In this document: one piece after another, positions 13,502-26,308 of the stretch
Layout: every line of letters starts with the position of its first letter
How positions within the stretch are numbered: position 1 is the first letter of the stretch
Source: an uncultured Anaerolineaceae bacterium
GTDB taxonomy: Bacteria; Chloroflexota; Anaerolineae; Anaerolineales; UBA4823
Direction: 5' to 3'
DNA length: 64,000 nucleotides
Assembly (NCBI GenBank): GCA_964391195.1
Contig: CAYMLG010000008.1
Location: 51,801-115,800 of the forward strand
Translations under genes and position numbers: made by a program
Notes under the pieces: generated by a model
The model's database searches: none
What the model was told of the DNA's origin: nothing
Seen by the model: the letters and a program-made list of their open reading frames with translations, nothing else

Positions 13502-15706
13502 TCAGTTCGGGATTGGGAGGACCTTGAGGGGGTTCAGGTAGCCGCCGGGCACGCGCACTTCGAAGTGCAGGTGTGGGCCGCCGGAGTTGCCGGTGTTGCC
13601 CGACAGGCCGATCAGATCACCGGCCTGCACTTTCGCCCCGCAGTGTTTGCTCACCTGGCTGAGATGGGCGTACAGGGTGATAAATCCGTTGCCGTGATCG
13701 ATGACAATGGCGTTGCCGTAGCCAATCGCGCCCGACCAGCCGGCGAACACCACCTGGCCGGTGTCCGCAGCATAGACCGCGGTCCCTTGGGGGGCGGAGA
13801 GGTCGAGTCCGGGGTGCCCTTCGCGGAAATCTCCGCCGGACAAAGCCTGGTAGACGCTGGGCCAGACGAACTGGCCGGTCCCCACCGGGCCATCCTTGAT
13901 CCCAGGGCAGCTCTGCCGGGCCACTTCGGTGAAGTCGACTTTCCCCGGATCGTAGGGGATATCTGGGAGGGGGACCCCACCTTCCTCCGCGGGAGGCGGT
14001 TCCTGTTCGTCCGGGCTTGGCGCCGGGGTGGGCGTTGGTTCCAGCACAGCGGTGGGAGTTGGGCCAGGCGGCGAGTCTTCGGGCCTTTCCTCCGGGGCCG
14101 CCTGCGCTGGCTGGAGCAGGGCAGCCTGTGCGAGTTGGGCGAAAATGGGGGCAGCCACCTGCGAGCCTTCTCCGGAATGTTCAACCAGCACCGCGATCAC
14201 CACACTGCGACCATCCGCCTCGGCGAAGCCGGTGAACCACGCGTGGGGGAGCCGGTCCCCACCGACCTGAGCTGTGCCGGTCTTCCCTCCCACGACCAAC
14301 CCAGGGACCTGGGCCTTGCGGCCGCTGCCCTGCTCGACCACGGCAATCATCATCTCGCGGACCAGGCTGGCCGTCTCCGGTTTCATCACCCCCGGCACAA
14401 CCTGCTCGACCAACGGCCCGGGCGAGACCTCCCCGGAAGGGTGGCGAATTTCTGCTACCAGGTGAGGGGTGGGCATATCACCCCGGTTGAGGACGGCCAA
14501 CACCAGGCGGGCCATATCCAGCGGGGTGACCAGCAGTTCTCCCTGCCCAATGCCGGTTGCCGCGCGCAGCAGCCGGCTCTCATACAGGCGATCCACCTCG
14601 GCCGCCACCTGGGAGGATAGAGCCGGGAGCTCGACCGGAAAACGCTCCCGGTCCGGGGCGTGCAGGCCCAGGCGGGTGGCATACTCGATCAGCACCTCGG
14701 GCGGCAGTTCATCCGCAATGCGGGCGAAGGCTGCGTTGGCCGACTTGGCATAAGACAGTTCCAGGGAAAGTTGCGCCTCGCGGTGGTTCGGGTCGGGGAT
14801 CACCCCACCCTCCACCTCGTAGACGTAGTATGGGCCGTCCGGTCCCTGGCGCGGCTCGCCGAAATCGAAGACCCGCTCCGGAGCCAGGCGGCCGGAATCC
14901 AGGCCGGCGATCAGGGTGACGGTCTTCCAGGTGGACCCGGGGGTGTATAGGGCCTGTACCGCCCGGTTCAGGAAGGGTGCCGCGCAGGCAGCTTCGTCAC
15001 ACTCAGAGGTGAGCTCTTCTACGTAACCCGGCTCGAGGATACGGTTTGGATCGAAACGCGGCAGGCTGGCCATGGCCAGCACTGCCCCGGACTCTCCATC
15101 GAGGATGACCACCGTCCCCGAGTGGCCGGCGAGGGCCTCCTCGGCTGCCTGCTGCAGACCGCTGTCGAGGGTGAGCACCAGGTCGGACCCGGTGACCGGC
15201 TCTTTAACCATGCGGCTGATTTGGGCGTCCAGGCGGTTGAGGCCGAGCAGCGTCTCGTTATAGGTGTATTCCAGCCCGGCGATACCGGTGCGGAGCCCGG
15301 AGACATAACCGATCACCGGGGCGAGAGAAGGCTCGTTGTAGAAACGGGTGCGGTTCCCATCCTCTTCGATGCGGTCGAAAGCGAGCAGCCGGCCGGCCCG
15401 GTCGTAGATGCTCCCCCGGGTGATCGTCCCGAGCAGGTCCACCGTGCGCTGGATCACCGGCTGGGGCAGGTCCTGCAAGCTGGTGAGGGCCGGGTCTGCG
15501 GAGATCAGCTTGATCGTTTCACCCGGGTCCTGCCGGACGCTCTTCAAGCCTCCGGCGTAACGCCCGGCAGCGACGACCGGGTCGAACAGCACCGGTGAGA
15601 GCAAATCGCCTCGCGCCATCTGCCAGTAGACCAGGCGCAGCGAGAGCAAAACCACCAGCAAGGTGAAGACGTTCCCCAGGGCCCACAGGCGCTTTTCGAA
15701 CCTCAT
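13502..15706 (-). CDS. Class B penicillin-binding protein (PBP2/PbpA-type transpeptidase) fused to a C-terminal M23/LytM peptidase domain
   Basis: Start set at MRFEKRLWAL (ATG 15706, ATGA overlap with the SEDS gene). TM anchor, then SxxK (STWK), SxN (SAN) and KTG (KTGTA) motifs. A Pro/Glu linker leads to the M23 motifs HPGLD and HLHFE with GNTGNSGGPH. Confidence 0.85.
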   Translation of the reverse strand: MRFEKRLWALGNVFTLLVVLLSLRLVYWQMARGDLLSPVLFDPVVAAGRYAGGLKSVRQDPGETIKLISADPALTSLQDLPQPVIQRTVDLLGTITRGSIYDRAGRLLAFDRIEEDGNRTRFYNEPSLAPVIGYVSGLRTGIAGLEYTYNETLLGLNRLDAQISRMVKEPVTGSDLVLTLDSGLQQAAEEALAGHSGTVVILDGESGAVLAMASLPRFDPNRILEPGYVEELTSECDEAACAAPFLNRAVQALYTPGSTWKTVTLIAGLDSGRLAPERVFDFGEPRQGPDGPYYVYEVEGGVIPDPNHREAQLSLELSYAKSANAAFARIADELPPEVLIEYATRLGLHAPDRERFPVELPALSSQVAAEVDRLYESRLLRAATGIGQGELLVTPLDMARLVLAVLNRGDMPTPHLVAEIRHPSGEVSPGPLVEQVVPGVMKPETASLVREMMIAVVEQGSGRKAQVPGLVVGGKTGTAQVGGDRLPHAWFTGFAEADGRSVVIAVLVEHSGEGSQVAAPIFAQLAQAALLQPAQAAPEERPEDSPPGPTPTAVLEPTPTPAPSPDEQEPPPAEEGGVPLPDIPYDPGKVDFTEVARQSCPGIKDGPVGTGQFVWPSVYQALSGGDFREGHPGLDLSAPQGTAVYAADTGQVVFAGWSGAIGYGNAIVIDHGNGFITLYAHLSQVSKHCGAKVQAGDLIGLSGNTGNSGGPHLHFEVRVPGGYLNPLKVLPIPN

Positions 15707-17112
15707 TCCGGCTGCCCCTCCAGGCGTTGGGCGATCGCCAGCACCAATCCGGTTTCGGCCAGGTTGACCAGCAGAGAGGTGCCGCCCAGACTGAGGAATG
15801 GGATGGTGATCCCGGTGAGAGGCAGCAGGTTGAGCGTGCCGCCGGCCATAATGAACACCTGGGTAAAAAAGTGAATGGCGATACCGGTCACCAGCAGGCG
15901 CTCGAACACCTGGGAGGCCGGCAGGAGGATCGCCACCCGGAGAATGCGCAGGAACAGCATGGCGAAAACGATCAGCACGGCGATACCGATCGCGGCCCCC
16001 ATCTCTTCTATGATCGCCGCGTAGATAAAATCCGAATGGGCCAGGGGCACATACTCCGGCGAACCAAGGCCCAGGCCGGTGCCGCTCAGCCCGCCGGCTG
16101 TGATGGCGTAGATGGCCTGTTGGATCTGGTAGCCGGGGCCTTCGGAGACGGTAATCCCCGCCGGCTGGCCGTCGATCAGGATGGGTTCCGTGCTCCACGG
16201 GTCTTGAAAAGCCAGGAAGCGGTAGCGGATAACGGTTGGGATCTCCCAGGTGAAGGCCAGCGCCAGCCCGGCGAGCAGGGCCAGCACCAGGCCGATGCTG
16301 GCGATGGTTGCGAACACCCGGGTATCGAACCCGGCGTAAAGCATGCCAACGAACAGGCAGGCCATAATCAGCACCGCGCCGAAATCTGACATCGCCACCA
16401 GGGCCAGGATGGACAGGGCGACGAAGAGCGCCCCGGGGAGGAAATAGTGCAGGCCAGGCAGCCGCAGCCAGCCGAAGAGCGGGCGCGCCCGACCTTCGGC
16501 CCGGCGGCCTTCCCGGTCAATGAACCAGGCGAGGAAGACGATCAGGGATACTTTGACGAACTCGGTGGTTTGAATGGCTGGCAAGGGGCCTAATTTCAGG
16601 GCCAGGCGAGCGCCGGTTTCGTCCACCACTCCGAACAGCGCGGTAGCAAACGGCAGCGCGAGCCCTACCAGGCTGATGGGTACCGCCCAGCGGCGCAGGG
16701 TCTCCACCAGCGGGGGGCGCTGGACCAGGACCCATATCAGGGCCATCCCGGGGAGCAAGCCGCGCAGCAATTGCTGCCAGGCGCCGCCGGCCCCCTGCAG
16801 GCGGAAGATCATCACCAGGCCGGTGGAAAAGAGCAGGGCAACCAGGGGGACCATGATCTGCTCTCCACGCATCCGGCGGAAGGACAACAGCAGGTGCAGG
16901 AGGGAGAACAGCGCGCAGACGAACAGGGGGGCAGGGAGGGCGCGCAGGGTGGCTTGCAGCGGGGCAGGGCCAGGCGATCCGCTGCCGGGGCTGCTGGCGC
17001 TCAGTTCCAGGCCGGCGGCCACCAGGGCGAAACCCATCACCGCCACGGCGAACACGATGGCCAGCAAGATGGCTTCAGAAAAACGGGGGGACAACCGGCC
17101 GGGCTTGAGCAT
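15703..17112 (-). CDS. SEDS-family peptidoglycan polymerase (FtsW/RodA)
   Basis: 469 aa and about 10 TM helices. SEDS motifs PLAHSDFIYAAIIEEMG and NLLPLTGITIPFLSLGGTSL. Confidence 0.9.
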   Translation of the reverse strand: MLKPGRLSPRFSEAILLAIVFAVAVMGFALVAAGLELSASSPGSGSPGPAPLQATLRALPAPLFVCALFSLLHLLLSFRRMRGEQIMVPLVALLFSTGLVMIFRLQGAGGAWQQLLRGLLPGMALIWVLVQRPPLVETLRRWAVPISLVGLALPFATALFGVVDETGARLALKLGPLPAIQTTEFVKVSLIVFLAWFIDREGRRAEGRARPLFGWLRLPGLHYFLPGALFVALSILALVAMSDFGAVLIMACLFVGMLYAGFDTRVFATIASIGLVLALLAGLALAFTWEIPTVIRYRFLAFQDPWSTEPILIDGQPAGITVSEGPGYQIQQAIYAITAGGLSGTGLGLGSPEYVPLAHSDFIYAAIIEEMGAAIGIAVLIVFAMLFLRILRVAILLPASQVFERLLVTGIAIHFFTQVFIMAGGTLNLLPLTGITIPFLSLGGTSLLVNLAETGLVLAIAQRLEGQPE

Positions 17113-17126
17113 TGAAAGGATCCGGT

Positions 17127-17594
17127 TCAGGCCAGGAACTCGAAGCTGGTGCCGCCAATTTCAATCACCGCTGTGGGTCGGAGAGGCGCCGCCTGGTGGG
17201 GGCGGCAAGGCGCGCCATCGACGACCGTCCCGTTGCGGCTGCCCAGATCCTCGATCCACCAGGTGAACCCATCCCACCGGATACGGGCGTGGCGGGCTGA
17301 GACGTATGGGTCCGGCAATACGATATCGTTCTCCTCACTCGCGCCCAGGCGCGTTTCCGGCTGCAGGGTCATGACCGCACCCGGGTGGAATGGCGATGAG
17401 CCGGCCGTCTTGAGTACCTTCAAGCGCCCGTGGGTCGGGGCGGCGTTGGAGCGAGCAGGCGCCGGCCCGTTCACGCGCACCGACAGTTCCCGGCGCACGG
17501 CGATGAGCACCACGAACAGCGCCAGGTAGATCAGCCCGATGAAGACCCATTTGGCTGCAAATAGAAGCGTGTTCCAGTCGAGAAAATCGATCAT
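17127..17594 (-). CDS. FHA-domain protein with N-terminal TM helix (FhaB-like)
   Basis: 155 aa. FHA core TRLGASEENDIVLPDPYVSARHARI ... SRNGTVVDG. Confidence 0.85.
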   Translation of the reverse strand: MIDFLDWNTLLFAAKWVFIGLIYLALFVVLIAVRRELSVRVNGPAPARSNAAPTHGRLKVLKTAGSSPFHPGAVMTLQPETRLGASEENDIVLPDPYVSARHARIRWDGFTWWIEDLGSRNGTVVDGAPCRPHQAAPLRPTAVIEIGGTSFEFLA

Positions 17595-18385
17595 CGGCAG
17601 TCTTGAACGAAATGGAGCAGGACGGCCCCCGGAGTGTACGGGTCAGGCGCGGTGGGATGAAGGGAGGCGAGGATAATCTGATCCCCCTCCTGCAGCGCGA
17701 TCCCCTCCGGTGGGACCCTACGGCGGTTGACGAAGGTGCCGTTCGTAGAGGACTTGCCCTCCGGCGTACCGTCGAACAGGCGGTAGTTGTCCCTCTCACA
17801 GCGCAAATAAGCGTGTCGGCCGCTTACCAGGCGCTTCTCCTGCACCAGCGGGTCCCGAAAAGAGATCTCGCAGTCTGGATCACGGCCGAGGACGAGGACT
17901 CCCGGATAGAGCCGCCAGCGCTGACCGGTGGATTCCATCTCCAGGCAGGCGGGGAGGGCGTCCGGGCGGGGAGATCCGCTTTCCTCTGCCGGCGCAAAGC
18001 GGCATAGGATGCGGGCCTGGTGGTCCTGCAAACCGGCCGCGGGCCGGACTTCCAGCTCCAGGCTTCCGGCCAGGCTGTATTCTTTGCGCCCCTGGCGGCT
18101 GTTGGCGGTGGCCAGGTGTTCGAGCATCATCTCCAACCATTGTTCGACGATGCGCCCGAGCAGCGGGGCGTAATGGGCGTGGAAGTTCTCCTGCCCCAAC
18201 TCGACCACGAACTGATTGGGGACGATCTTGCGGAAATGGACGTCCTCCAGCAGGAACTTCCGGTCGAGCAAACAGTCGCACAGCGCTTCGCCCACCTCGG
18301 CCGGGCGCAGCGGGGTCTTAAGCCAGGGGAGGCGCGGCCCCACCAGCCTGCTCTTCCAGCCCATCTCGGCCTGCAGCTCGCTCAC
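17591..18385 (-). CDS. FhaA-like protein (DUF3662-like N-terminus + C-terminal FHA domain)
   Basis: 264 aa. C-terminal FHA LVLGRDPDCEISF ... SGRHAYL ... STNGTFVN. 4-nt overlaps with both neighbours. Confidence 0.8.
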   Translation of the reverse strand: MSELQAEMGWKSRLVGPRLPWLKTPLRPAEVGEALCDCLLDRKFLLEDVHFRKIVPNQFVVELGQENFHAHYAPLLGRIVEQWLEMMLEHLATANSRQGRKEYSLAGSLELEVRPAAGLQDHQARILCRFAPAEESGSPRPDALPACLEMESTGQRWRLYPGVLVLGRDPDCEISFRDPLVQEKRLVSGRHAYLRCERDNYRLFDGTPEGKSSTNGTFVNRRRVPPEGIALQEGDQIILASLHPTAPDPYTPGAVLLHFVQDCR

Positions 18386-19071
18386 CGCTCACCTTCCCGC
18401 AAGCGCAGCAGGAGCAGCGTTTCGCCGACCTGGATGCGGTCGCCTGGATCGAGCCCCTTGTCGCTGATTTCGAAATCGTTCACCCGCGTCCCGTGGGTGC
18501 TGTTTAGATCGCGCAGGCGGAGCACCAGGGCTTGCTCGTAAATTTCGGCGTGCCGGCGTGAGACGGCCAGGTCGCCGTCCAGGCGGATATCCACCCCGCT
18601 GCCGCGGCCAATGGTGAGCGGCAGTCGCTGCAAGGGATACACCCGCCCGGAGTCCGGCCCCTCGAGGACAACCAGCTCGACCCGCCGCTGTGGCGCTTCC
18701 GCCTGGCGCCCGGCGCCTGTAGCGTGGACCGGCTCGGCGATTGTTGGGTGCAGCAGGTCGGCGGCGGGGATGGTTGCCATGCGCCTGGGTTCCGGGTCAG
18801 GGGGTTTGAGCAGCGTCACCCGCCGCACCTCCCCCGGCGCTTGGGAGACGGCTGGCTCCAGCAGGTGCAGCAAGATACGGATGAACAGGTAAGCCAGGAA
18901 GCCGAGACCAGGCAGCAGGGCGACCAGGGCGAGCCAGGCAATTTGCGCCGAGGCCGGCTGCTGGCGGCGGCTGAGATCCACGTAGGTGATCGCGATCGAG
19001 GCAACCCACAACAGCAAGCCCAGGCAGCCGAGCCCGGCGATGATCAGCACTCGGGAAAATAAATCTTCCAT
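18382..19071 (-). CDS. Membrane-anchored FHA-domain protein (PLDc_N-like two-helix N-terminus + FHA)
   Basis: 229 aa. The N-terminus YVDLSRRQQPASAQIAWLALVALLPGLGFLAYLF resembles the PLD-nuclease N-terminal membrane domain. C-terminal FHA LTIGRGSGVDIRL ... SRRHAEI ... STHGTRVN. Confidence 0.75.
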   Translation of the reverse strand: MEDLFSRVLIIAGLGCLGLLLWVASIAITYVDLSRRQQPASAQIAWLALVALLPGLGFLAYLFIRILLHLLEPAVSQAPGEVRRVTLLKPPDPEPRRMATIPAADLLHPTIAEPVHATGAGRQAEAPQRRVELVVLEGPDSGRVYPLQRLPLTIGRGSGVDIRLDGDLAVSRRHAEIYEQALVLRLRDLNSTHGTRVNDFEISDKGLDPGDRIQVGETLLLLRLREGER

Positions 19072-19247
19072 ACCCTTCAGTTCGATTGGAGAACCGTTTT
19101 CACTACCGGTGTAGATTTTACCTCAGAGGAGGATAACCAAATTCTATCATCTCTTGTTCAGTTTCATCTGAGGAATCAGGGATGAGGGGCGGCAAGGAGG
19201 AAAAGGTGAAGGCCCAGGCCACGAAATGGCGGGCAGGGGTTACTGCT

Positions 19248-20366
19248 TTAGAACAGCCGGATGAAACCCAAACGCGCGAGCAGGAAGATGAACACCAACG
19301 CCGCGCTTAACCAACCCAGGAGGATGCCCAGCAGCAGGCGGCCAGCTGTCCTACGGGTCCGCTCCGGGGTGCCAGCGCCTGGCTTAGGTTCAGGAGGCGG
19401 CGGGGAAACAGCCTGGGAGGCCGGAGCGAAGGCTTCAGGACGTCGTCCCAGCGTCGGCCCGGCGGTCGCCGCCGGTGGGGTGAGCAGGGTCGGCACCCCG
19501 GTCTTGAGCGCCTGAGGGTCCTGCGGGGCGTCCGCCGCAGAATCAGCTCCCGCCTCCGGACGCGGCAAACAGCGGGCGACGATTGCAGTGCAGTTGTCGC
19601 TCCCATCCCGCGCGACGGCCTCCTCCACCAGCGCCCGTGCGGCCTCTGCCGCGTCGAGTCCAAGCGTGATCTCGGACACTTCCGAGGCGTCCAGGCTCGA
19701 CAGGCCATCGGTGCACAGGATCAGCGCATCCCCTTCCGACCAGGTGTAGTGGTACAGATCGACCTGGCAGGAGTCTGAGAGCCCCACCGCCCGGGTGATC
19801 AATCCGTTGGCCCTGGGGTCGAGGTCACCGCCCCCCGCCAGTCCGGCTTTCGCCGCTCGCACCTGCCCGCTGTGATCCTCGGTGAGCTGGCGCCGTTGGC
19901 GGTTTGCAGCCTGCACCAGGTAGGCGCGGCTGTCGCCCACGTTGGCGACCCACAGATGTTCCCCGGCCAGCACCGCCGCGACCAGGGTCGTCAGCCGCCA
20001 GGCGCCAGGATTGGGATGGCGGGCGGACTCGAGCCGGTTGAGGGCGTTCACCGCTTCGACACATTCGCGCAGCCGGTCCCCCAAATGCTCAGTCCCCATC
20101 TGGGCATAATAGAGAGCCTGCAGATAGGCCACAGCCTCACGGCTGGCTTCCCCTCCCCCCTCCAGGCCGCCGACTCCGTCGGCCACGACGATCAGGGTGC
20201 CGAAATTCGCCTCGTCTGCTCCCGAAGCCGGGAGTGACCAGGCGTCTTCGTTGCGCGACCGCAGGCGCCCGGCGGAAGTGGCTGCCGCGCACCAGGGAGG
20301 GGCGAAGGGCGGGAGCGGGCCAGGACCGGGCTGGTCGTCCCAATCTCGTAGGTTCTTGGCGGTCAT
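19248..20366 (-). CDS. PP2C-family Ser/Thr phosphatase with C-terminal TM anchor (PstP-like)
   Basis: Motifs VVADGVGG, LCTDGLS, GSDNCTAIV. Pro-rich linker and terminal hydrophobic helix LLLGILLGWLSAALVFIFLLA. Confidence 0.9.
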   Translation of the reverse strand: MTAKNLRDWDDQPGPGPLPPFAPPWCAAATSAGRLRSRNEDAWSLPASGADEANFGTLIVVADGVGGLEGGGEASREAVAYLQALYYAQMGTEHLGDRLRECVEAVNALNRLESARHPNPGAWRLTTLVAAVLAGEHLWVANVGDSRAYLVQAANRQRRQLTEDHSGQVRAAKAGLAGGGDLDPRANGLITRAVGLSDSCQVDLYHYTWSEGDALILCTDGLSSLDASEVSEITLGLDAAEAARALVEEAVARDGSDNCTAIVARCLPRPEAGADSAADAPQDPQALKTGVPTLLTPPAATAGPTLGRRPEAFAPASQAVSPPPPEPKPGAGTPERTRRTAGRLLLGILLGWLSAALVFIFLLARLGFIRLF

Positions 20367-20492
20367 CCCACCGATTATAACCTCGCTTCTGCGTATGGCT
20401 CAGCATTTTGTAGACAGCTTACAGAGATGCAATTTACTCGCTTGCCTCAGGGGGGAGGTTATGGGATAATGCCGGTGAAGCCTGGACATACC

Positions 20493-22250
20493 ATGTCGAT
20501 GAACGATCCCTTCACCGGAAAACAAGTGGAACACTTCCGCATCGAGCGGCTGCTCGGGCGCGGGGGGATGGGCAGCGTGTATTACGGGTGGGACCTGCGC
20601 CTCGATCGCCCGGTCGCAATCAAAATCCTCGACCCGCGCTACCAGGAAGACCCGGCATTTGCGGCCCGTTTCCTGCAAGAGGCGCGGGCGGTGGCCGCCT
20701 GGAAGCACCCCAACATCATCCAGGTGTACTATGCCGGTGAGGACCTGGGAGTCCATTATTTCGCCATGGAGTACGTTCCCGGGCAGGACCTGGAAGCCAG
20801 GCTGAAGAGCTACTCCGAGCGTGGAGAGCTGATCCCCCAGGGAGAAGCGCTGCGGATCGGGCGGGCGGTCGCCTCGGCCTTGGATTACGCCCATCGCCAG
20901 GGGGTGATCCACCGTGACGTCAAGCCATCCAACATCCTGTTGGCCGATGACGGGCGGGTGGTGATCACCGATTTTGGTCTGGCGATGCGGGTGACCGAGA
21001 AGTCGCTCGGAGAAGTGTTCGGCAGCCCATTCTACATCGCCCCCGAGCAGGCGCGCAGTTCAGCCAGCGCTACCCCGCTCTCAGACCTGTATTCGCTCGG
21101 AGTGATCCTCTACGAGATGCTGACCGGATCTCCGCCGTTCAGCGATCCTTCACCCACAGCCCTGGCCATCCAGCACCTCACCCTGCCCCCACCGCCCGCA
21201 CGGGAGAGAAACCCGGACCTGAACGCCGCGGTGGAACAGGTGCTTGCCAGGGCGCTGAGCAAGCAGCCGGAAGCCCGCTATCCATCCGGCCAGGCGCTGA
21301 TCGATGCCCTGGAAGCGGCGCTGGCCCAGGCGGATGAGGGAGCCGAACCGCCCACCCAACCTCTGCTGGTCTCCGAGCAGTTGGCTCCGGATGATGAAGT
21401 TCCCCACCGCGGGCAGCCGGAGCTCGGACCCGCTTCGCCCCACGGCGGCGCCAGCCAGGCGCCTCGACTGATGTGGTATTCCGCCGGCTGCGGGCTGACC
21501 ACGGTGCTCGCGGTGCTGGTCTTGCTCATCGCCTCCTTTGCGCTCTCGCAGGCTCAGGCCCAACGCAGCAAGGCCACAGAACCCGGCCAGCAGGCGCAGA
21601 CCGCGGTAGCCGGATTGGATCCCGCCAACATCGCCACCCGCACCGCCCCTCCAACTACCTCGGCCGTCACCAGGACCGCCACCTTTGAGCCAACCCCCAC
21701 CAGCCGGCCGAGCGATACCCCACTCCCGCCCAGCCCGACCCCCGAACCGCTCACGCCCACCCCGCTCCCGCCTACCATCACCCCGTCTGCGACGCCCGAG
21801 CCACCCACCGCCGCCCCGCCCCAGCCGGCTGAGGGGCAAGTAGAGGACGAGGAGGATGGGGATTTCGTGCTCTATTACGACGATTCCAGCTTTTATATCG
21901 AGAACCGCTCTGGTAAAGACCGTTCGATCTATCCCCTCTCGTTCGAGTTGCTCAACAAAGATGAGAAGCCGGTCAGGCGGTTCGACGGTTGGATCTGGGG
22001 CGAGATCTACCCAAACTTCCGGACGGGTTACTGCATGTCGCTGGAGATCATCAACATCGAGCGCCACCTGGACCCGCCGGAATGCCGGGACAAGATCCTC
22101 GTCTACCGCACACCACGCTCGGACGCCAATTACATCTTCTGGATCCGCGATAGCGACAGTAGAGAGTTCCGGGTGCTGTGGCGCGATGCCGAAGTCAAAC
22201 GGTGTAAAATAGCCCAGAAGACCTGTGCGTTCAACTTACCAGACCCATGA
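20493..22250 (+). CDS. Hanks-type Ser/Thr protein kinase with TM helix and Cys-containing C-terminal ectodomain
   Basis: The ORF opens at 20427; I prefer ATG 20493 (MSMNDPF). Kinase motifs GRGGMGSVYYG, VAIK, HRDVKPSNILL, DFGLA, APEQ. TM GLTTVLAVLVLLIASFAL, then a P/T linker and a 129-aa ectodomain. Confidence 0.9.
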   Translation: MSMNDPFTGKQVEHFRIERLLGRGGMGSVYYGWDLRLDRPVAIKILDPRYQEDPAFAARFLQEARAVAAWKHPNIIQVYYAGEDLGVHYFAMEYVPGQDLEARLKSYSERGELIPQGEALRIGRAVASALDYAHRQGVIHRDVKPSNILLADDGRVVITDFGLAMRVTEKSLGEVFGSPFYIAPEQARSSASATPLSDLYSLGVILYEMLTGSPPFSDPSPTALAIQHLTLPPPPARERNPDLNAAVEQVLARALSKQPEARYPSGQALIDALEAALAQADEGAEPPTQPLLVSEQLAPDDEVPHRGQPELGPASPHGGASQAPRLMWYSAGCGLTTVLAVLVLLIASFALSQAQAQRSKATEPGQQAQTAVAGLDPANIATRTAPPTTSAVTRTATFEPTPTSRPSDTPLPPSPTPEPLTPTPLPPTITPSATPEPPTAAPPQPAEGQVEDEEDGDFVLYYDDSSFYIENRSGKDRSIYPLSFELLNKDEKPVRRFDGWIWGEIYPNFRTGYCMSLEIINIERHLDPPECRDKILVYRTPRSDANYIFWIRDSDSREFRVLWRDAEVKRCKIAQKTCAFNLPDP

Positions 22251-24025
22251 TCCCTGAAGACTCGTTACTCAGCCGCCAACTGGACGAATACCAGATCGAA
22301 GCCCTCCTCGGCCGGGGAGGAATGGCCCGCGTCTACCGGGCGTTCGATATCCGCCTTAAGCGCCGGGTCGCGATCAAAGTGATCGACACCCCCTATCGGG
22401 CCGAGGCCGGCTATGTCACCCGCTTCGAGCGCGAGGCCCAGGTCATCGCGCAGCTGTCTCACCCCCAGGTGGTCCAACTCTACCGCTATGGGGAAGCGGA
22501 CGGCTTTTTGTATATGGTAATGCAGTACATCGACGGCGCCGACCTGCACAGCATCCTCCACAGCTACCGCCAGGACGGGGAGTTCATGCAGCCGGACGAA
22601 ATCCTGCCGGTGGTCAGAGATATCTGCGAGGCCCTGGACTATATCCACAACCACGGGGTCGTTCACCGGGATATCAAGCCGTCGAACATCATGCTCACTC
22701 GCCAGGGACGGGCTGTGCTGACGGATTTTGGCCTGGCCTTGCTGACCGATGTAGGCACCCTGGGGCACGTATTCGGCTCCCCGCAGTACATCGCCCCCGA
22801 GCAAGCCGTGTCGTCGGCCAACGCCAGCCCGGCCAGCGACCTGTATTCCCTGGGGGTGATCCTGTACGAAATCTACACCGGGCGCCTGCCATTCCTGGCC
22901 GATGACGCCGTGGAACTGGCGATGCAGCACATCACCGCCGCGCCGCCCTCCCCCCGGCAGATCCGCCCCGAGATCAGCCCCGAGGTGGAAGGGGTGATCC
23001 TGAGGCTGCTGGCGAAAGACCCGCAGGCGCGTTACAGCAGCGGATCCGCGGTGGTCCGGGCCCTGGAGCAAGCCCTGGGCGGGAGGCCGGGAGCCACTGA
23101 ACCTCTGCCCACGATCGGCCGGTTAACCATGCCCGAGCGGGTAGACCTTCACACCCCGGCCTTGTCTGAGGCAAAAGTACAGCCTGAGGCTATAGAACAG
23201 CCTGAGGCGAAAGTACAGCCTGAGGCTAATGTACAGCCTGAGGCTTCAGAACAGCCCGAGGCGAAAGCACAGGCTGGAGTGCAGCCCGAGGTCCATAACC
23301 GGCCGGCCCCGCCAACCGTGGGTGAGGGGGACGCCCCAGGCGCCCGGCCCTCCGGACCGCATACCGCCTCATCCCCTAATCTGCGTCGCAGCCTGCCCTG
23401 GATCGGGGCAGGGGCCGGGTGCCTGGCGCTGCTGGTGCTCGCCTGCCTGGTGGTGTTTTCAACTGCCCGCCTGCTCGGCATCTTCCTGCCAGACCAGCGC
23501 CTCACCGCCCCCACGGCCCAGCCGCGGGAAGAACAGGTCATCCCGAGTCCTACAGATTTGCCGCGGCCGGCCGTCGAAACCCCGCCGCCAACCAACACTC
23601 CCCAAAACACCCCCGAGGTGGCGACCCCAACCGCCACGCCCCCCGCCGGCCTCGGCCTGCTGCTGGCAAAACTGGGTAAGGACGCCCCTACCCTTGTACT
23701 GGTCAACCAGGGCCGGGAGAGCTTCCTCCTGGGCGGCTTACAACTGGGTAATACCCCCAGCAAAGTGTTCGGCCAGGACTGGGAGGTGGAGCGCCTGGAG
23801 GTTGGGCAGTGCGTGGTGGTGCAGCGCAAAGGCAAGAAAAAACCGCGGCTGGACGACATCGACTGCGAGCCGGTAGGCAAAACTCTGGAACGCGAAGGCA
23901 AGGCCACCTTCTGGATGTCCCCATTCAATGTCTACTATAACGGCCAGTACATTGGCAGTTGCGAGCAGGATGAGAACGAGTGCCGGGTGGAGATTCCCAG
24001 CGAGCTGATCCAGGGTTCCAAATAA
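22247..24025 (+). CDS. Hanks-type Ser/Thr protein kinase, paralogous architecture
   Basis: Kinase motifs GRGGMARVYRA, VAIKV, HRDIKPSNIML, DFGLA, APEQ. QPEAxV hexapeptide repeats, TM CLALLVLACLVVF, and a 125-aa Cys-containing ectodomain. 4-nt overlap with the upstream kinase. Confidence 0.9.
   Translation: MIPEDSLLSRQLDEYQIEALLGRGGMARVYRAFDIRLKRRVAIKVIDTPYRAEAGYVTRFEREAQVIAQLSHPQVVQLYRYGEADGFLYMVMQYIDGADLHSILHSYRQDGEFMQPDEILPVVRDICEALDYIHNHGVVHRDIKPSNIMLTRQGRAVLTDFGLALLTDVGTLGHVFGSPQYIAPEQAVSSANASPASDLYSLGVILYEIYTGRLPFLADDAVELAMQHITAAPPSPRQIRPEISPEVEGVILRLLAKDPQARYSSGSAVVRALEQALGGRPGATEPLPTIGRLTMPERVDLHTPALSEAKVQPEAIEQPEAKVQPEANVQPEASEQPEAKAQAGVQPEVHNRPAPPTVGEGDAPGARPSGPHTASSPNLRRSLPWIGAGAGCLALLVLACLVVFSTARLLGIFLPDQRLTAPTAQPREEQVIPSPTDLPRPAVETPPPTNTPQNTPEVATPTATPPAGLGLLLAKLGKDAPTLVLVNQGRESFLLGGLQLGNTPSKVFGQDWEVERLEVGQCVVVQRKGKKKPRLDDIDCEPVGKTLEREGKATFWMSPFNVYYNGQYIGSCEQDENECRVEIPSELIQGSK
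23168..23293 (+). repeat. About seven tandem 18-nt coding repeats (E-A-x-x-Q-P)
   Basis: gaggcaaaagtacagcct / gaggctatagaacagcct / gaggcgaaagtacagcct / gaggctaatgtacagcct / gaggcttcagaacagccc / gaggcgaaagcacaggct, plus a degenerate copy. Confidence 0.85.
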
Positions 24026-24184: not shown

Positions 24185-26308
24185 ATGGAAATGCAACCCC
24201 AACAGGCAAAAGTACCCTGGAAGATCATCCTCCCCGGGATCGCGGCCATGGTCGTGCTCTCCCTGTGCGTCGTGGCGGTCATCCTCACCGCCGGAAGCCG
24301 GATGATCTTCTCTGGAGAGGGAGAGCCCCGGGCAGAAACTGCGAACCAGGCCAGGACAGAGGGGGTGGTGAAACCGGAAGCGGAGGGGGGCGATAGTTCC
24401 AGGCCCGAAGACGCAGAGGGCGGACGCCTCCAGCTCGCGACGGAGGCGGCACAGCTCGCGGTTGAGGCGGCGCAGCTCGCGACCTACACCGGTTGGGTCG
24501 AGGTGCAGCGGGACGACGGGACCTGGGCTGCTGCGGAAGCAGGGCAGGCTCTACAGGCCGGGCAGCGCCTGCGAACGGGGGAGCTATCCTCGGCTGAAGT
24601 GATCTTCTTCGACGGCAGCCGGGCGCGCCTGCTGGCGAACAGCGAACTCTCCATCGATGAACTGCAGTGGCGGGAGAAAAGCGACCAGCGCACGATCCTG
24701 CTGACCCAGTGGGCCGGGGAGAGCGAACATGAAGTGGCGGAGAACAAAAAGGCAGGTTCGCGTTACGAAGTCCGCACCCCGGCGGGCAGCGCCGAAGCCA
24801 GGGGGACCATCTTCCTCGTCGCCGTCTCACCCGAGCAGACGGCGCGCTACGTAGTGATCGAAGGTGTGGTAGCTGTCACCCACCTGGAAGTGACTGTGCT
24901 GGTCAACGGCGGAGAAGCGACAATCGTCTACCTGGACCAGCCGCCAATGCAGCCGTTCGCCAGGGTGACCGTGGAGGGGCTGGTCTCCCAGGTGGGAGAT
25001 ACCTGGATCGCCGGCGGACAGTCCTTCATCGTTGATGGGCGGACGGCCGTGGTGGGCGACCCGCAGCTTGGCGACTGGGTGCGAATCGAGGGGCGCATCG
25101 GCCAGGACCAGGCCCGGATCGCCGATTGGATCATCCTGCTGCGCCGTTCTCCGGCCGACCGCTTCCAACTGCGAGGGGTGGTCGAGGCGATTGGCGAGGT
25201 CGAGTGGCTGGTGAACGGCCAAACCGTATTGATCTCCGCCGGCACGGTGATCGACGATGGGATTCAGACAGGGGACGCGGTCCAGGTAGCCGGGGAACTG
25301 CTCCCCGGAGGCTCGCTGCAGGCGGAAGAAATCCGTAAAATCCCGCCTGATCTGGGGCTGCCGCTGGAATTCACCGGCGTCCTGCAGGAGATGGGGACGG
25401 AGATCTGGCGGGTCTCGGGGTTGGATATCCGTATCACAGAGGACACCCTCCTGGCGCAAAACCTGGAGACCGGCGCCTCCGTCCGGGTGCGAGGATGGAT
25501 TCAAGATACGGGTGCGATCACTGCGGCGAGCATCCTGCTCGCCGGGGAGGAAGAACAGTCCTTCGAGATCACCGGCGTACTTGAGAGCCGGGAGCCGTGG
25601 CAGGTGGCCGGGGTGGGCTTCGAGGCCACCGATTGGACCGAGATGGACGGCGACCTGGCCGTTGGAGAGCTGGTGCGCGTGGAGGGGCAGATCACCGGCG
25701 ATGGGCGCTGGATCGCATCTGAAATACGGCGTGTGGCAGAACGGTCTACCCGCCTGGTGCTGGTGGGGACGGTGATGGCGATCGATCCCTGGATCGTGAG
25801 CAGTATCCCGCTCACGGTCACCGCAGAGACGGTGATCGAGGGTGAGATCACGCCGGGGATGCTGGTGCGGGTGGAGATACTGCTGCTGCCCGGGGGCGAA
25901 TGGCAGGTCTTACGCATCCAGGGCCTCGAATCGGCCGTTACCCTGCCTGTGTGCCAGGAGATTCTGGCGACCGTGGTTAGGGTGAAGAAAGAGGATATCG
26001 AGCTGTTCGGGTGGCCGGCGCTGGATCTGGGTGAAGGCATCCAGGTGGACGGCTTCCTGAGGCCAGACAGCGTGGTGCGTGTCCAGTTGTGCTTCACCGT
26101 GGAGGGGACGATTGAGGTTACCTATATCATCGTGATCGACCAGTTGGAGTTCGAGCCCGACCCGGATGACGAACCCGGGATGGGCGGGCACAAGGTGGAT
26201 ATTTGCCATAAGCCCGATAAGAAGAAAGGCGGGCACACCATCAATATCGATCAGGCGGCCATCCCTGCCCATCTGGGGCACGGAGACTACCTGGGACCCT
26301 GCCGCTGA
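24185..26308 (+). CDS. Membrane-anchored FecR-domain protein with about six DUF5666-like repeats and a Cys/His C-terminal motif
   Basis: 707 aa. N-terminal TM, then a FecR-like segment (GWVEVQRDDGTWAAAEAGQALQAGQRLRTGELSSAEVIFFDGSRARLLANSEL). About six 60-aa repeats of the type hxhxGxV ... G..V.V.G follow. The C-terminus reads KVDICHKPDKKKGGHTINIDQAAIPAHLGHGDYLGPC. Confidence 0.7.
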   Translation: MEMQPQQAKVPWKIILPGIAAMVVLSLCVVAVILTAGSRMIFSGEGEPRAETANQARTEGVVKPEAEGGDSSRPEDAEGGRLQLATEAAQLAVEAAQLATYTGWVEVQRDDGTWAAAEAGQALQAGQRLRTGELSSAEVIFFDGSRARLLANSELSIDELQWREKSDQRTILLTQWAGESEHEVAENKKAGSRYEVRTPAGSAEARGTIFLVAVSPEQTARYVVIEGVVAVTHLEVTVLVNGGEATIVYLDQPPMQPFARVTVEGLVSQVGDTWIAGGQSFIVDGRTAVVGDPQLGDWVRIEGRIGQDQARIADWIILLRRSPADRFQLRGVVEAIGEVEWLVNGQTVLISAGTVIDDGIQTGDAVQVAGELLPGGSLQAEEIRKIPPDLGLPLEFTGVLQEMGTEIWRVSGLDIRITEDTLLAQNLETGASVRVRGWIQDTGAITAASILLAGEEEQSFEITGVLESREPWQVAGVGFEATDWTEMDGDLAVGELVRVEGQITGDGRWIASEIRRVAERSTRLVLVGTVMAIDPWIVSSIPLTVTAETVIEGEITPGMLVRVEILLLPGGEWQVLRIQGLESAVTLPVCQEILATVVRVKKEDIELFGWPALDLGEGIQVDGFLRPDSVVRVQLCFTVEGTIEVTYIIVIDQLEFEPDPDDEPGMGGHKVDICHKPDKKKGGHTINIDQAAIPAHLGHGDYLGPCR

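What the first reader, a model, noticed from the sequence alone, without database searches (positions are those of the whole stretch)
21861..24022. Both kinases end in the same uncharacterised about 125-aa four-cysteine ectodomain instead of PASTA repeats
The extracytoplasmic C-termini (21861..22247 and 23648..24022) align by eye. Each starts with a hydrophobic strand (FVLYYDDSSFYIENRS vs LVLVNQGRESFLLGG). Both share F-x-x-x-W (FDGWIW / FGQDWEV), G-x-C (TGYC / VGQC), C 18 residues later (PPEC / IDC), FW (YIFWI / TFWM) and a terminal C-x6-C (KRCKIAQKTC / GSCEQDENEC). Cys spacing is 18 / 40 / 7 versus 18 / 32 / 7. I cannot assign the module to a known sensor family (PASTA, PQQ/beta-propeller, SBP, NHL). 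Two paralogous copies on adjacent kinases suggest a dedicated ligand-sensing or heterodimerising domain.
Basis: seen in the sequence. Interest (0 to 1): 0.6.

Follow-up and report, generated by a model that had tools for sequence, protein, structure and literature searches.

The report
Four-cysteine sensor domain on paired kinases
Two neighbouring membrane protein kinases of an uncultured Anaerolineae bacterium, placed like the cell-wall kinases PknA and PknB, both end outside the cell in the same uncatalogued four-cysteine beta-sandwich domain, whose predicted fold resembles the lamin tail domain and which probably senses or binds the cell envelope where other bacteria use PASTA repeats.

Summary
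The two C-terminal ectodomains (D1, 21861-22247; D2, 23648-24022) are homologous. BLASTP does not show this (E 3.7), but profile-profile comparison does (hhalign 97 %, E 7e-11, about 108 columns, all four Cys aligned; shuffled controls score 17 or less against 63).

Neither domain matches Pfam or NCBIfam. Independent AlphaFold models (pLDDT 79 and 91) share one strand order. For both models, every top PDB match is the lamin-tail Ig-like domain (probability 0.99, TM only 0.4-0.5). Sequence support for LTD homology is weak (hhalign 17 %).

The four Cys are present in 193 of 197 collected domain copies. The genome encodes VKOR and DsbA-like proteins, so two disulfides are likely but unproven.

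The family is rare: about 4 % of sampled Anaerolineae genomes for each type. The kinase-D1 then kinase-D2 gene pair recurs in eight related loci, in three of them next to recognisable cell-wall cluster genes, as with actinobacterial pknA/pknB. The genome has no PASTA domain.

The domain is not kinase-specific. One Anaerolineae family fuses it to CAP, HTTM/VKGC and PASTA modules.

Best reading: an envelope-binding sensor module. An obligatory heterodimer is unlikely. This is a new variant of a known kind, of moderate interest.

The parts
20427..22250 (+). Kinase 1 gene (PknA-position Hanks-type Ser/Thr kinase, 607 aa as the longest ORF). The real start is probably 20469 or 20493, where database orthologues begin.
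   Evidence: ORF. Pkinase PF00069 E 1.8e-50, residues 38-290. GRGGMG, VAIK, HRDVKPSN, DFG and APE motifs are intact. Orthologue starts.
21474..21542 (+). Single transmembrane helix of kinase 1 (about residues 350-372), followed by a 106-aa linker rich in Pro/Thr/Ser/Ala (21543-21860).
   Evidence: Kyte-Doolittle maximum 2.53 in a single hydrophobic stretch; linker is 61 % P+T+S+A.
21861..22247 (+). Ectodomain D1: four-Cys, all-beta, LTD-like sandwich. Cys codons at 22032, 22083, 22203 and 22224.
   Evidence: Translation. Family alignments. AlphaFold pLDDT 79, pTM 0.78. Foldseek top 15 hits are lamin Ig-like tails. Cys codons checked.
22247..24025 (+). Kinase 2 gene (PknB-position Hanks-type Ser/Thr kinase, 592 aa). 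Its start overlaps the kinase 1 stop codon (ATGA).
   Evidence: ORF. Pkinase E 1.7e-54, residues 15-267. VAIK, HRDIKPSN, DFG and APE motifs. Overlap sequence.
23402..23476 (+). Single transmembrane helix of kinase 2 (about residues 386-410), followed by a Pro/Thr-rich linker of about 56 aa (23477-23647).
   Evidence: Kyte-Doolittle maximum 2.63 in a single stretch; linker is 57 % P+T+S+A.
23648..24022 (+). Ectodomain D2: four-Cys, all-beta, LTD-like sandwich. Cys codons at 23810, 23864, 23960 and 23981. The folded core is about residues 2-117.
   Evidence: Translation. 245 family representatives at E<=1e-3. AlphaFold pLDDT 90.6, pTM 0.84. Foldseek top 13 hits are lamin Ig-like tails. Cys codons checked.
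13502..20366 (-). Divergently transcribed cell-wall and phospho-signalling genes: bPBP transpeptidase+M23 (ORF 13502-16198), RodA/FtsW (15703-17112), FHA protein (17591-18385), PLDc_N+FHA protein (18382-19071), PP2C phosphatase (19248-20366).
   Evidence: Pfam scan. Parts of the same cluster lie next to the kinase pair in related loci L010, L012 and L014.
24185..26308 (+). FecR + DUF5666-repeat membrane protein directly downstream. It is a recurrent neighbour of D2-bearing genes; whether it belongs to the system is not tested.
   Evidence: Pfam. Homologue present in L002, L006 and L007. One protein, P0093, carries a sub-threshold DUF5666 match (22.8 bits, cut-off 27) plus two D2 copies.

Best explanation
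D1 and D2 are two diverged copies of one uncatalogued extracytoplasmic domain family. The domain is a beta-sandwich of about 115-125 aa and nine strands with a lamin-tail-like (Ig-like) fold, and is probably stapled by two disulfides formed from four invariant cysteines. Each copy sits on a long Pro/Thr-rich stalk outside the membrane, at the C-terminus of one of two translationally coupled, catalytically intact Hanks-type Ser/Thr kinases.

These kinases occupy the pknA/pknB position of an FHA-FHA-PP2C-RodA-bPBP cluster.

Proposed mechanism (inferred). The sandwich binds a component of the cell envelope, such as peptidoglycan, its precursor, or another wall or surface polymer. Binding localises the kinases, clusters them, or both. 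They then autophosphorylate and signal through the FHA proteins and the PP2C phosphatase to the RodA-PBP wall synthase. In this genome, which has no PASTA, this is the role PASTA repeats play for PknB and PrkC.

Shown: domain homology, predicted fold, topology, Cys invariance, synteny, absence of PASTA.
Inferred: disulfides, ligand class, signalling route.
For: - Homology of D1 and D2: hhalign 97 %, E 7e-11, with clean controls. Bridging members hit both HMMs.
- Fold: two independent AlphaFold models share one strand order, and both have only lamin Ig-like tails as top PDB hits.
- Topology: one TM helix plus a Pro/Thr-rich stalk. The domain lies within 25 aa of the C-terminus in 145 of 151 family representatives.
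- Cysteines: all four are present in 193 of 197 copies, with almost no other Cys. The genome has 2 VKOR and at least 4 DsbA-like genes.
- Kinase linkage: 52 of 54 D2-family proteins of 450 aa or more carry a kinase domain.
- Context: the cluster is present in the window. The adjacent kinase-D1/kinase-D2 pair recurs in L004, L005, L006, L009, L010, L011, L012 and L014. L012 is colinear FHA-FHA-RodA-PBP-kinase-kinase.
- PASTA: none above the cut-off in the own genome, which is rated 100 % complete.
- Fusions: recurrent PASTA-D and PASTA-D-D proteins in four other genomes link the module to wall-binding contexts.
- Precedent: PknB PASTA binds muropeptides and lipid II (PMC3145798, PMC6428115).
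Against: - No ligand or binding site has been identified. The conserved aromatics (W, FW, F) may simply be core residues.
- I had no model coordinates, so Cys-Cys distances were not checked.
- The LTD resemblance is modest (TM 0.4-0.5, rmsd 5-8 A). Sequence support is weak (hhalign 17 %, P 0.0014, N-terminal half only).
- Other genomes carrying the domain also have PASTA proteins, so it is not a simple PASTA substitute.
- D1-type kinases in G079, G264, G229 and G298 lie away from any recognisable wall cluster.
- The module is also fused to CAP and HTTM/VKGC proteins. It may therefore be a generic surface-anchoring or spacer domain rather than a specific sensor.
Confidence: 0.5

Rival explanations
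1. Dimerisation module. D1 and D2 bind each other, or D2 binds D2. They bring the two kinase domains together for trans-activation without any small or polymeric ligand, so the ectodomain is a constitutive or redox-gated pairing device.
For: - Adjacent, translationally coupled genes.
- The pair is conserved in eight loci.
- Rosetta-stone forms exist: kinase-kinase fusions with tandem D2-D2 (P0031, L003), and single kinases with tandem D2-D2. Two ectodomain copies per signalling unit is therefore a recurrent state.
- Lamin Ig-like domains can form beta-strand-mediated dimers (PDB 7crg is among the Foldseek hits).
Against: - D1-type kinases occur alone in G079, G264, G229 and G298.
- D2-type kinases occur with a single copy and without D1.
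- The module occurs in one to three copies on non-kinase secreted proteins.
- No complex prediction could be run.
Confidence: 0.2
2. Passive surface spacer or anchor. The domain is a generic LTD-type Ig-like module that holds or orients proteins in the envelope or S-layer and has no signalling input. The kinases are regulated from the cytoplasmic side only.
For: - Canonical LTDs are abundant in Anaerolineae (40 of 41 genomes, often many tandem copies in large surface proteins).
- The four-Cys module is promiscuously fused to CAP, HTTM/VKGC, PPC and PASTA.
Against: - There is strong purifying conservation of a specific motif set beyond the Cys (N, W, FW, F at over 90 %).
- Orthologous D1 and D2 types have been retained on orthologous kinases across families.
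- Receptor kinases with a long stalk and one terminal globular domain are typically ligand-regulated (general knowledge of PknB and PrkC).
Confidence: 0.2
3. Redox or metal sensor. The four invariant cysteines form a metal site or a reversible thiol switch that reports extracytoplasmic redox state to the kinases.
For: Four invariant Cys and virtually no others. One fusion partner elsewhere is a vitamin-K-dependent-carboxylase-like HTTM/VKGC protein.
Against: - The spacing (C-x17/18-C ... C-x6-C) is not a typical CxxC metal knuckle.
- There are no conserved His or Asp partners among the columns conserved at 70 % or more.
- The domain is extracytoplasmic and the genome has VKOR and DsbA, which favours stable disulfides.
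Confidence: 0.08

Closest known systems
Mycobacterium tuberculosis PknA/PknB in the fhaA-fhaB-pstP-rodA-pbpA-pknA-pknB cluster (and the PASTA kinases PrkC/Stk1)
   Same: Two adjacent Hanks-type kinases with one TM helix lie next to FHA proteins, a PP2C phosphatase, a SEDS polymerase and a class B PBP. The kinase domains score best against the NCBIfam model PknB_PASTA_kin (317 bits). The presumed role is control of wall synthesis from an extracytoplasmic cue (PMC3145798, PMC6428115).
   Different: - There is no PASTA repeat. The score is below the model cut-off of 450, and no PASTA is found anywhere in the genome.
- Both kinases, not only the PknB-like one, carry a globular ectodomain.
- The ectodomain is a single four-Cys beta-sandwich on a long Pro/Thr stalk.
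- Here the kinases are divergently transcribed from the rest of the cluster.
Lamin tail domain (LTD, Pfam PF00932; PDB 1ifr, 1ufg, 3jt0, 3umn)
   Same: - It is the top and only consistent structural match for both models (Foldseek probability 0.99).
- The size (about 110-125 aa) and the all-beta sandwich agree.
- The N-terminal half aligns in the same register: 'x-I/V-x-N-x-g-x-x-x-h-x-L', then 'L-x-pG-x-x-V-x-V'.
- LTD is the only Pfam family hit by more than one member below threshold.
- Bacterial LTDs are extracytoplasmic (PMC5630835 for their occurrence in bacteria).
   Different: - It fails the Pfam gathering score. There is no hit for D1 or D2 at E<=1, and the best family member scores 18 bits against a cut-off of 34.3.
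- hhalign gives only 17 %.
- TM is 0.4-0.5 with rmsd 5-8 A.
- The four invariant Cys and the FW / F-x-V-Y-Y / C-x6-C C-terminal half are not part of the LTD alignment built here.
Other non-PASTA ectodomains of bacterial Hanks kinases, e.g. the PknD beta-propeller (NHL) of M. tuberculosis
   Same: The architecture is the same: kinase, TM helix, linker, then one globular extracytoplasmic sensor.
   Different: The fold is different (beta-propeller against a small Ig-like sandwich). No sequence or structure match was seen here. Knowledge of the PknD fold is from memory and was not tested.

Membership tests
Hanks-type (eukaryotic-like) Ser/Thr protein kinase, Pfam PF00069 | Pkinase domain above the gathering score, with the catalytic Lys, HRD loop, DFG and APE motifs | tested here: met
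   E 1.8e-50 and 1.7e-54. VAIK, HRDxKPSN, DFG and APE are present in both. In kinase 2 the Gly-rich loop is GRGGMA.
PASTA kinase (NCBIfam NF033483 PknB_PASTA_kin) | One or more PASTA (PF03793) repeats in the extracytoplasmic part, and a score above the 450-bit cut-off | tested here: not met
   317 bits for both, with matches limited to the kinase and juxtamembrane part. No PASTA in either protein or anywhere in the genome above the cut-off.
Actinobacterial-type fhaA-fhaB-pstP-rodA-pbpA-pknA-pknB cluster | Two adjacent kinases next to two FHA proteins, a PP2C phosphatase, a SEDS protein and a class B PBP | tested here: met
   All seven components lie between 13502 and 24025, although the kinases are divergent from the rest. 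The colinear form is in L012, where no PP2C was detected by the phmmer search. The divergent form is in L014.
Lamin tail domain, Pfam PF00932 | Sequence match above the Pfam gathering score (34.3 bits) | tested here: not met
   No LTD hit for D1 or D2 at E<=1. 3 of 40 family members hit at E 0.05-1. The best is 18 bits, in P0019. The own-genome LTD search at E<=10 does not list the kinases.
Lamin tail domain, Pfam PF00932 | LTD-type Ig-like beta-sandwich fold | tested here: inconclusive
   Foldseek top 15 (D1) and top 13 (D2) PDB hits are all lamin tails, with probability up to 0.99. However E is only 3e-3 to 1e-1 and TM 0.35-0.51. hhalign against 30 Anaerolineae LTDs gives 17 %, P 0.0014, score 23.7, against 14.2 or less in shuffles.
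Disulfide-stabilised extracytoplasmic domain | Cysteines conserved in pairs, outside location, oxidative folding machinery present, Cys pairs in bonding distance | tested here: inconclusive
   Four Cys are present in 193 of 197 copies. The outside location follows from the single TM helix. VKOR x2 and DsbA-like x4 are encoded.

The most novel reading that the evidence does not exclude
The four-Cys sandwich is the founding example of a new extracytoplasmic sensor-domain family. It would be a disulfide-stapled offshoot of the LTD fold that, in PASTA-less Anaerolineae, reads the state of the cell wall for a PknA/PknB-type kinase pair. The same module would be reused on CAP, VKGC-like and PASTA proteins as a portable envelope-recognition unit with a defined, still unknown ligand.
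Probability: 0.35. Interest if true: 0.6.

Novelty: new variant of a known kind. Interest (0 to 1): 0.45.

Why it matters
How bacteria outside Firmicutes and Actinobacteria couple wall synthesis to Ser/Thr phosphorylation is poorly known. Anaerolineae are abundant, filamentous and mostly uncultured.

This locus shows the actinobacterial-type FHA/PP2C/RodA/PBP/two-kinase module with a different outside sensor. That gives a defined small domain (about 115 aa, confidently modelled) that can be expressed and tested for ligands.

It also defines a domain family that Pfam and NCBIfam do not cover. There are 245 cluster representatives at 50 % identity for the D2 type alone, and the family could be added to domain databases.

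If the LTD relationship holds, it extends the known repertoire of bacterial LTD-like modules to receptor kinases.

Tried and rejected
- BLASTP of D1 against D2 was not significant (E 3.7). hhalign with thin profiles was only suggestive (probability 15 %). Both were superseded by deeper profiles.
- The word-indexed homology search found only 6 (D1) and 2 (D2) proteins. This gave a false impression of extreme rarity. The exhaustive HMMER search found 245 representatives.
- The HMM of the six close D1 sequences did not find D2 in the own genome even at E<=10.
- A profile search of PDB sequences found nothing at E<=10.
- Foldseek against viral structures (BFVD) gave nothing at E<=0.001 (best hit E 0.012, probability 0.87).
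- The search for related loci with the broad alignment failed for lack of a conserved stretch. It was repeated with a tighter alignment.
- Complementary distribution with PASTA was tested and rejected. Families f5 and f21 have both, and the own order has neither PASTA nor, mostly, the domain.
- Strict D1/D2 co-occurrence was tested and rejected.
- Literature searches for a described LTD-like or Cys-rich kinase ectodomain in Chloroflexota or Anaerolineae found nothing relevant.
- Earlier notes of this scan contain no look-alike.
Full report
WHAT IS THERE. Two ORFs on the + strand, 20427-22250 (607 aa as the longest ORF) and 22247-24025 (592 aa), overlap by ATGA. Both have a full Pkinase domain (E 1.8e-50 and 1.7e-54) with intact VAIK, HRDxKPSN, DFG and APE motifs. 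Each has one strongly hydrophobic helix (residues about 350-372 and 386-410). Each then has a linker rich in Pro, Thr, Ser and Ala, of 106 aa in kinase 1 and 56 aa in kinase 2. Each ends in a terminal domain of about 125 aa, D1 at 21861-22247 and D2 at 23648-24022. Neither terminal domain matches any Pfam or NCBIfam model, even at E<=1.

ARE D1 AND D2 RELATED? Direct BLASTP says no (E 3.7). A comparison of the thin first alignments gave only P 0.002. An exhaustive HMMER search with D2 found 245 cluster representatives at E<=1e-3. From these I built a family alignment of 160 domains. The D1 family first looked tiny, with six proteins. It was enlarged from loci fetched with a D2-type alignment, because the gene upstream of the D2 kinase carries a D1-type tail in eight loci.

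Profile-profile comparison then gives probability 91 % and E 1e-6 with the six-sequence D1 profile. With fourteen D1 sequences it gives 97 % and E 7e-11 over about 108 columns. All four Cys, the G-x-C, the FW and the C-x6-C are aligned. Reversed or column-shuffled D1 alignments score at most 17.2, against 63.2 for the real one. In a six-frame search of the whole genome (50,599 ORFs), kinase 1's tail is the only non-self hit of the D2 HMM. Intermediate D1 members hit the D2 HMM at 1e-5 to 8e-4.

The D1 Cys spacing is 17/40/7.

FOLD. AlphaFold2 with the family alignments gave pLDDT 79 and pTM 0.78 for D1, and pLDDT 90.6 and pTM 0.84 for D2. Both models are all-beta, with the same order of nine strands and one short helix after strand 4. 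Foldseek against the PDB returned only lamin Ig-like tail domains as the first 15 hits for D1 and the first 13 for D2. Probabilities reach 0.99, but E is only 3e-3 to 1e-1 and TM only 0.35-0.51. Nothing useful came from viral structures or from PDB sequences.

At the sequence level, Pfam LTD (PF00932) is the only family touched by more than one member. It is hit by 3 of 40 members at E 0.05-1 and by P0019 at 18 bits against a cut-off of 34.3. An LTD profile built from 30 Anaerolineae LTDs aligns with the N-terminal half in the structurally expected register. That comparison gives hhalign 17 %, P 0.0014 and score 23.7, against 14.2 or less in shuffles. I therefore call the fold LTD-like. Membership of the LTD family is not established.

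CYSTEINES. I collected 197 domain copies: 160 of D2 type, 13 of D1 type, and 24 from a distant Anaerolineae family. All four Cys are present in 193 of them, and the four exceptions lack only the last Cys. Almost no other Cys occurs. The domain is outside the membrane. The genome encodes two VKOR homologues and at least four DsbA-like thioredoxins. Two disulfides are the natural reading. By position, C1-C2 and the hairpin-closing C3-C4 are plausible partners. I had no model coordinates, so this is an inference.

CONTEXT. Divergently upstream lie a PP2C phosphatase, two FHA proteins, RodA/FtsW and a bPBP transpeptidase fused to an M23 peptidase.

The adjacent pair kinase-D1 then kinase-D2 recurs in L004, L005, L006, L009, L010, L011, L012 and L014. 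In each case the D1 kinase matches kinase 1's catalytic domain best, and the D2 kinase matches kinase 2's best. Both parts are therefore orthologous, and the duplication is old. L012 is colinear FHA-FHA-RodA-PBP-kinase-kinase. L014 is divergent like the window. L010 has the PBP directly upstream of the pair. All but one of the named records are Chloroflexota MAGs, mostly labelled Anaerolineae or Anaerolineales, Promineifilaceae or Ardenticatenaceae.

The own genome, rated 100 % complete, has no PASTA domain above the cut-off. Nine genomes of the same order have none either.

DISTRIBUTION AND ARCHITECTURES. The D2 type was found in 13 of 301 sampled genomes of the class, and the D1 type in 10 of 301. 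These counts are lower bounds, because only part of the first-look candidates was scored.

Among D2-family proteins of 450 aa or more, 52 of 54 are kinases. The domain lies within 25 aa of the C-terminus in 145 of 151. Variants include:
- a single kinase with tandem D2-D2 (P0015, P0019, P0024, P0033, P0068);
- kinase-kinase fusions with a D2 tail (P0031, L003, L031), in tandem D2-D2 in P0031 and L003.

D1-type kinases also occur alone, away from any wall cluster.

In one Anaerolineae family (f32), a more distant form of the module hits both the D1 and D2 HMMs and is not kinase-linked. There it follows a CAP domain in one to three copies, an HTTM plus VKGC-lumenal domain, a PPC domain, or a PASTA repeat. 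PASTA directly followed by the module recurs in four genomes (G074, G149, G229, G298), with two copies in the two examined by Pfam.

INTERPRETATION. The anatomy is that of a receptor kinase: a cytoplasmic catalytic domain, one TM helix, a stalk and a terminal globular domain. Three things favour an envelope-binding or sensing module that plays, for this PASTA-less organism, the role PASTA plays for PknB and PrkC (PMC3145798, PMC6428115). They are the position in the RodA/PBP/FHA/PP2C cluster, the recurrent fusion to PASTA elsewhere, and the LTD-like or carbohydrate-binding-like sandwich. This is an inference, and I put it at about 0.5.

The heterodimer idea has support from translational coupling, the conserved pair and the tandem or fused forms. 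It is weakened by solitary D1 and D2 kinases and by the non-kinase contexts. I put it at about 0.2. A passive spacer or anchor role (about 0.2) and a redox or metal sensor (below 0.1) remain possible.

NOVELTY. I found no description in Pfam, NCBIfam, PDB sequences or the searchable literature. The system as a whole is a known kind, a PknA/PknB-type module, with a new uncatalogued sensor domain that is probably a disulfide-stapled relative of the LTD fold. I rate it a new variant of a known kind, of moderate interest.

Noticed in passing
window 24185-26308; L002 5595-8369; L006 1-1134; L007 11047-13428: A FecR + DUF5666-repeat membrane protein is a recurrent neighbour of D2-bearing genes. One database protein (P0093, 468 aa) carries a sub-threshold DUF5666 match (22.8 bits, cut-off 27) together with two D2 copies. 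This hints at a functional link.
   Followed up: partly
P0031 (1044 aa); L003 6127-9336; L031 1788-4673: In some Anaerolineae MAGs the two kinases are fused into one polypeptide with two Pkinase domains, one membrane part and a D2 tail. The tail is a tandem D2-D2 in P0031 and L003. This is Rosetta-stone type evidence that the pair works together.
   Followed up: partly
L022 2839-4764; L023 2415-4343; L029 2792-4336; L041 3047-4567: In one Anaerolineae family, secreted CAP (PF00188) proteins carry one to three tandem copies of the four-Cys module at the C-terminus. These copies hit both the D1 and D2 HMMs.
   Followed up: partly
L027 2298-4130; L028 1325-3085: HTTM + VKGC-lumenal (vitamin-K-dependent-carboxylase-like) membrane proteins end in one copy of the module.
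   Followed up: no
L034 3203-4324; L036 2334-3407; G074:C192:16389-16922; G149:C146:10324-10869: Proteins of 358-467 aa consist of one PASTA repeat directly followed by the four-Cys module. There are two copies in L034 and L036. No kinase or PBP domain is present in the two scanned with Pfam.
   Followed up: partly
window 23168-23293: The juxtamembrane (E-A-x-x-Q-P)n repeat of kinase 2 is much shorter in the 96 %-identical orthologue P0011 (563 aa against 592 aa). The repeat number therefore varies between close relatives.
   Followed up: partly
L012 (DATHSI010000347.1): A MAG labelled Candidatus Sulfomarinibacteraceae (Acidobacteriota) carries the complete Anaerolineae-like FHA-FHA-RodA-PBP-kinase-D1-kinase-D2 cluster. 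This could be a mis-binned contig or a horizontal transfer.
   Followed up: no
L005 3526-5277: The D1 tail of this kinase stops after the first Cys. This could be a truncation, a frameshift or an assembly error. The downstream kinase has tandem D2-D2, and a 265-aa kinase fragment lies between the two.
   Followed up: no
own genome and 9 genomes of the same order: No PASTA domain above the Pfam cut-off in any of them, although PASTA occurs in several other sampled families of the class (f5, f10, f21, f32).
   Followed up: partly
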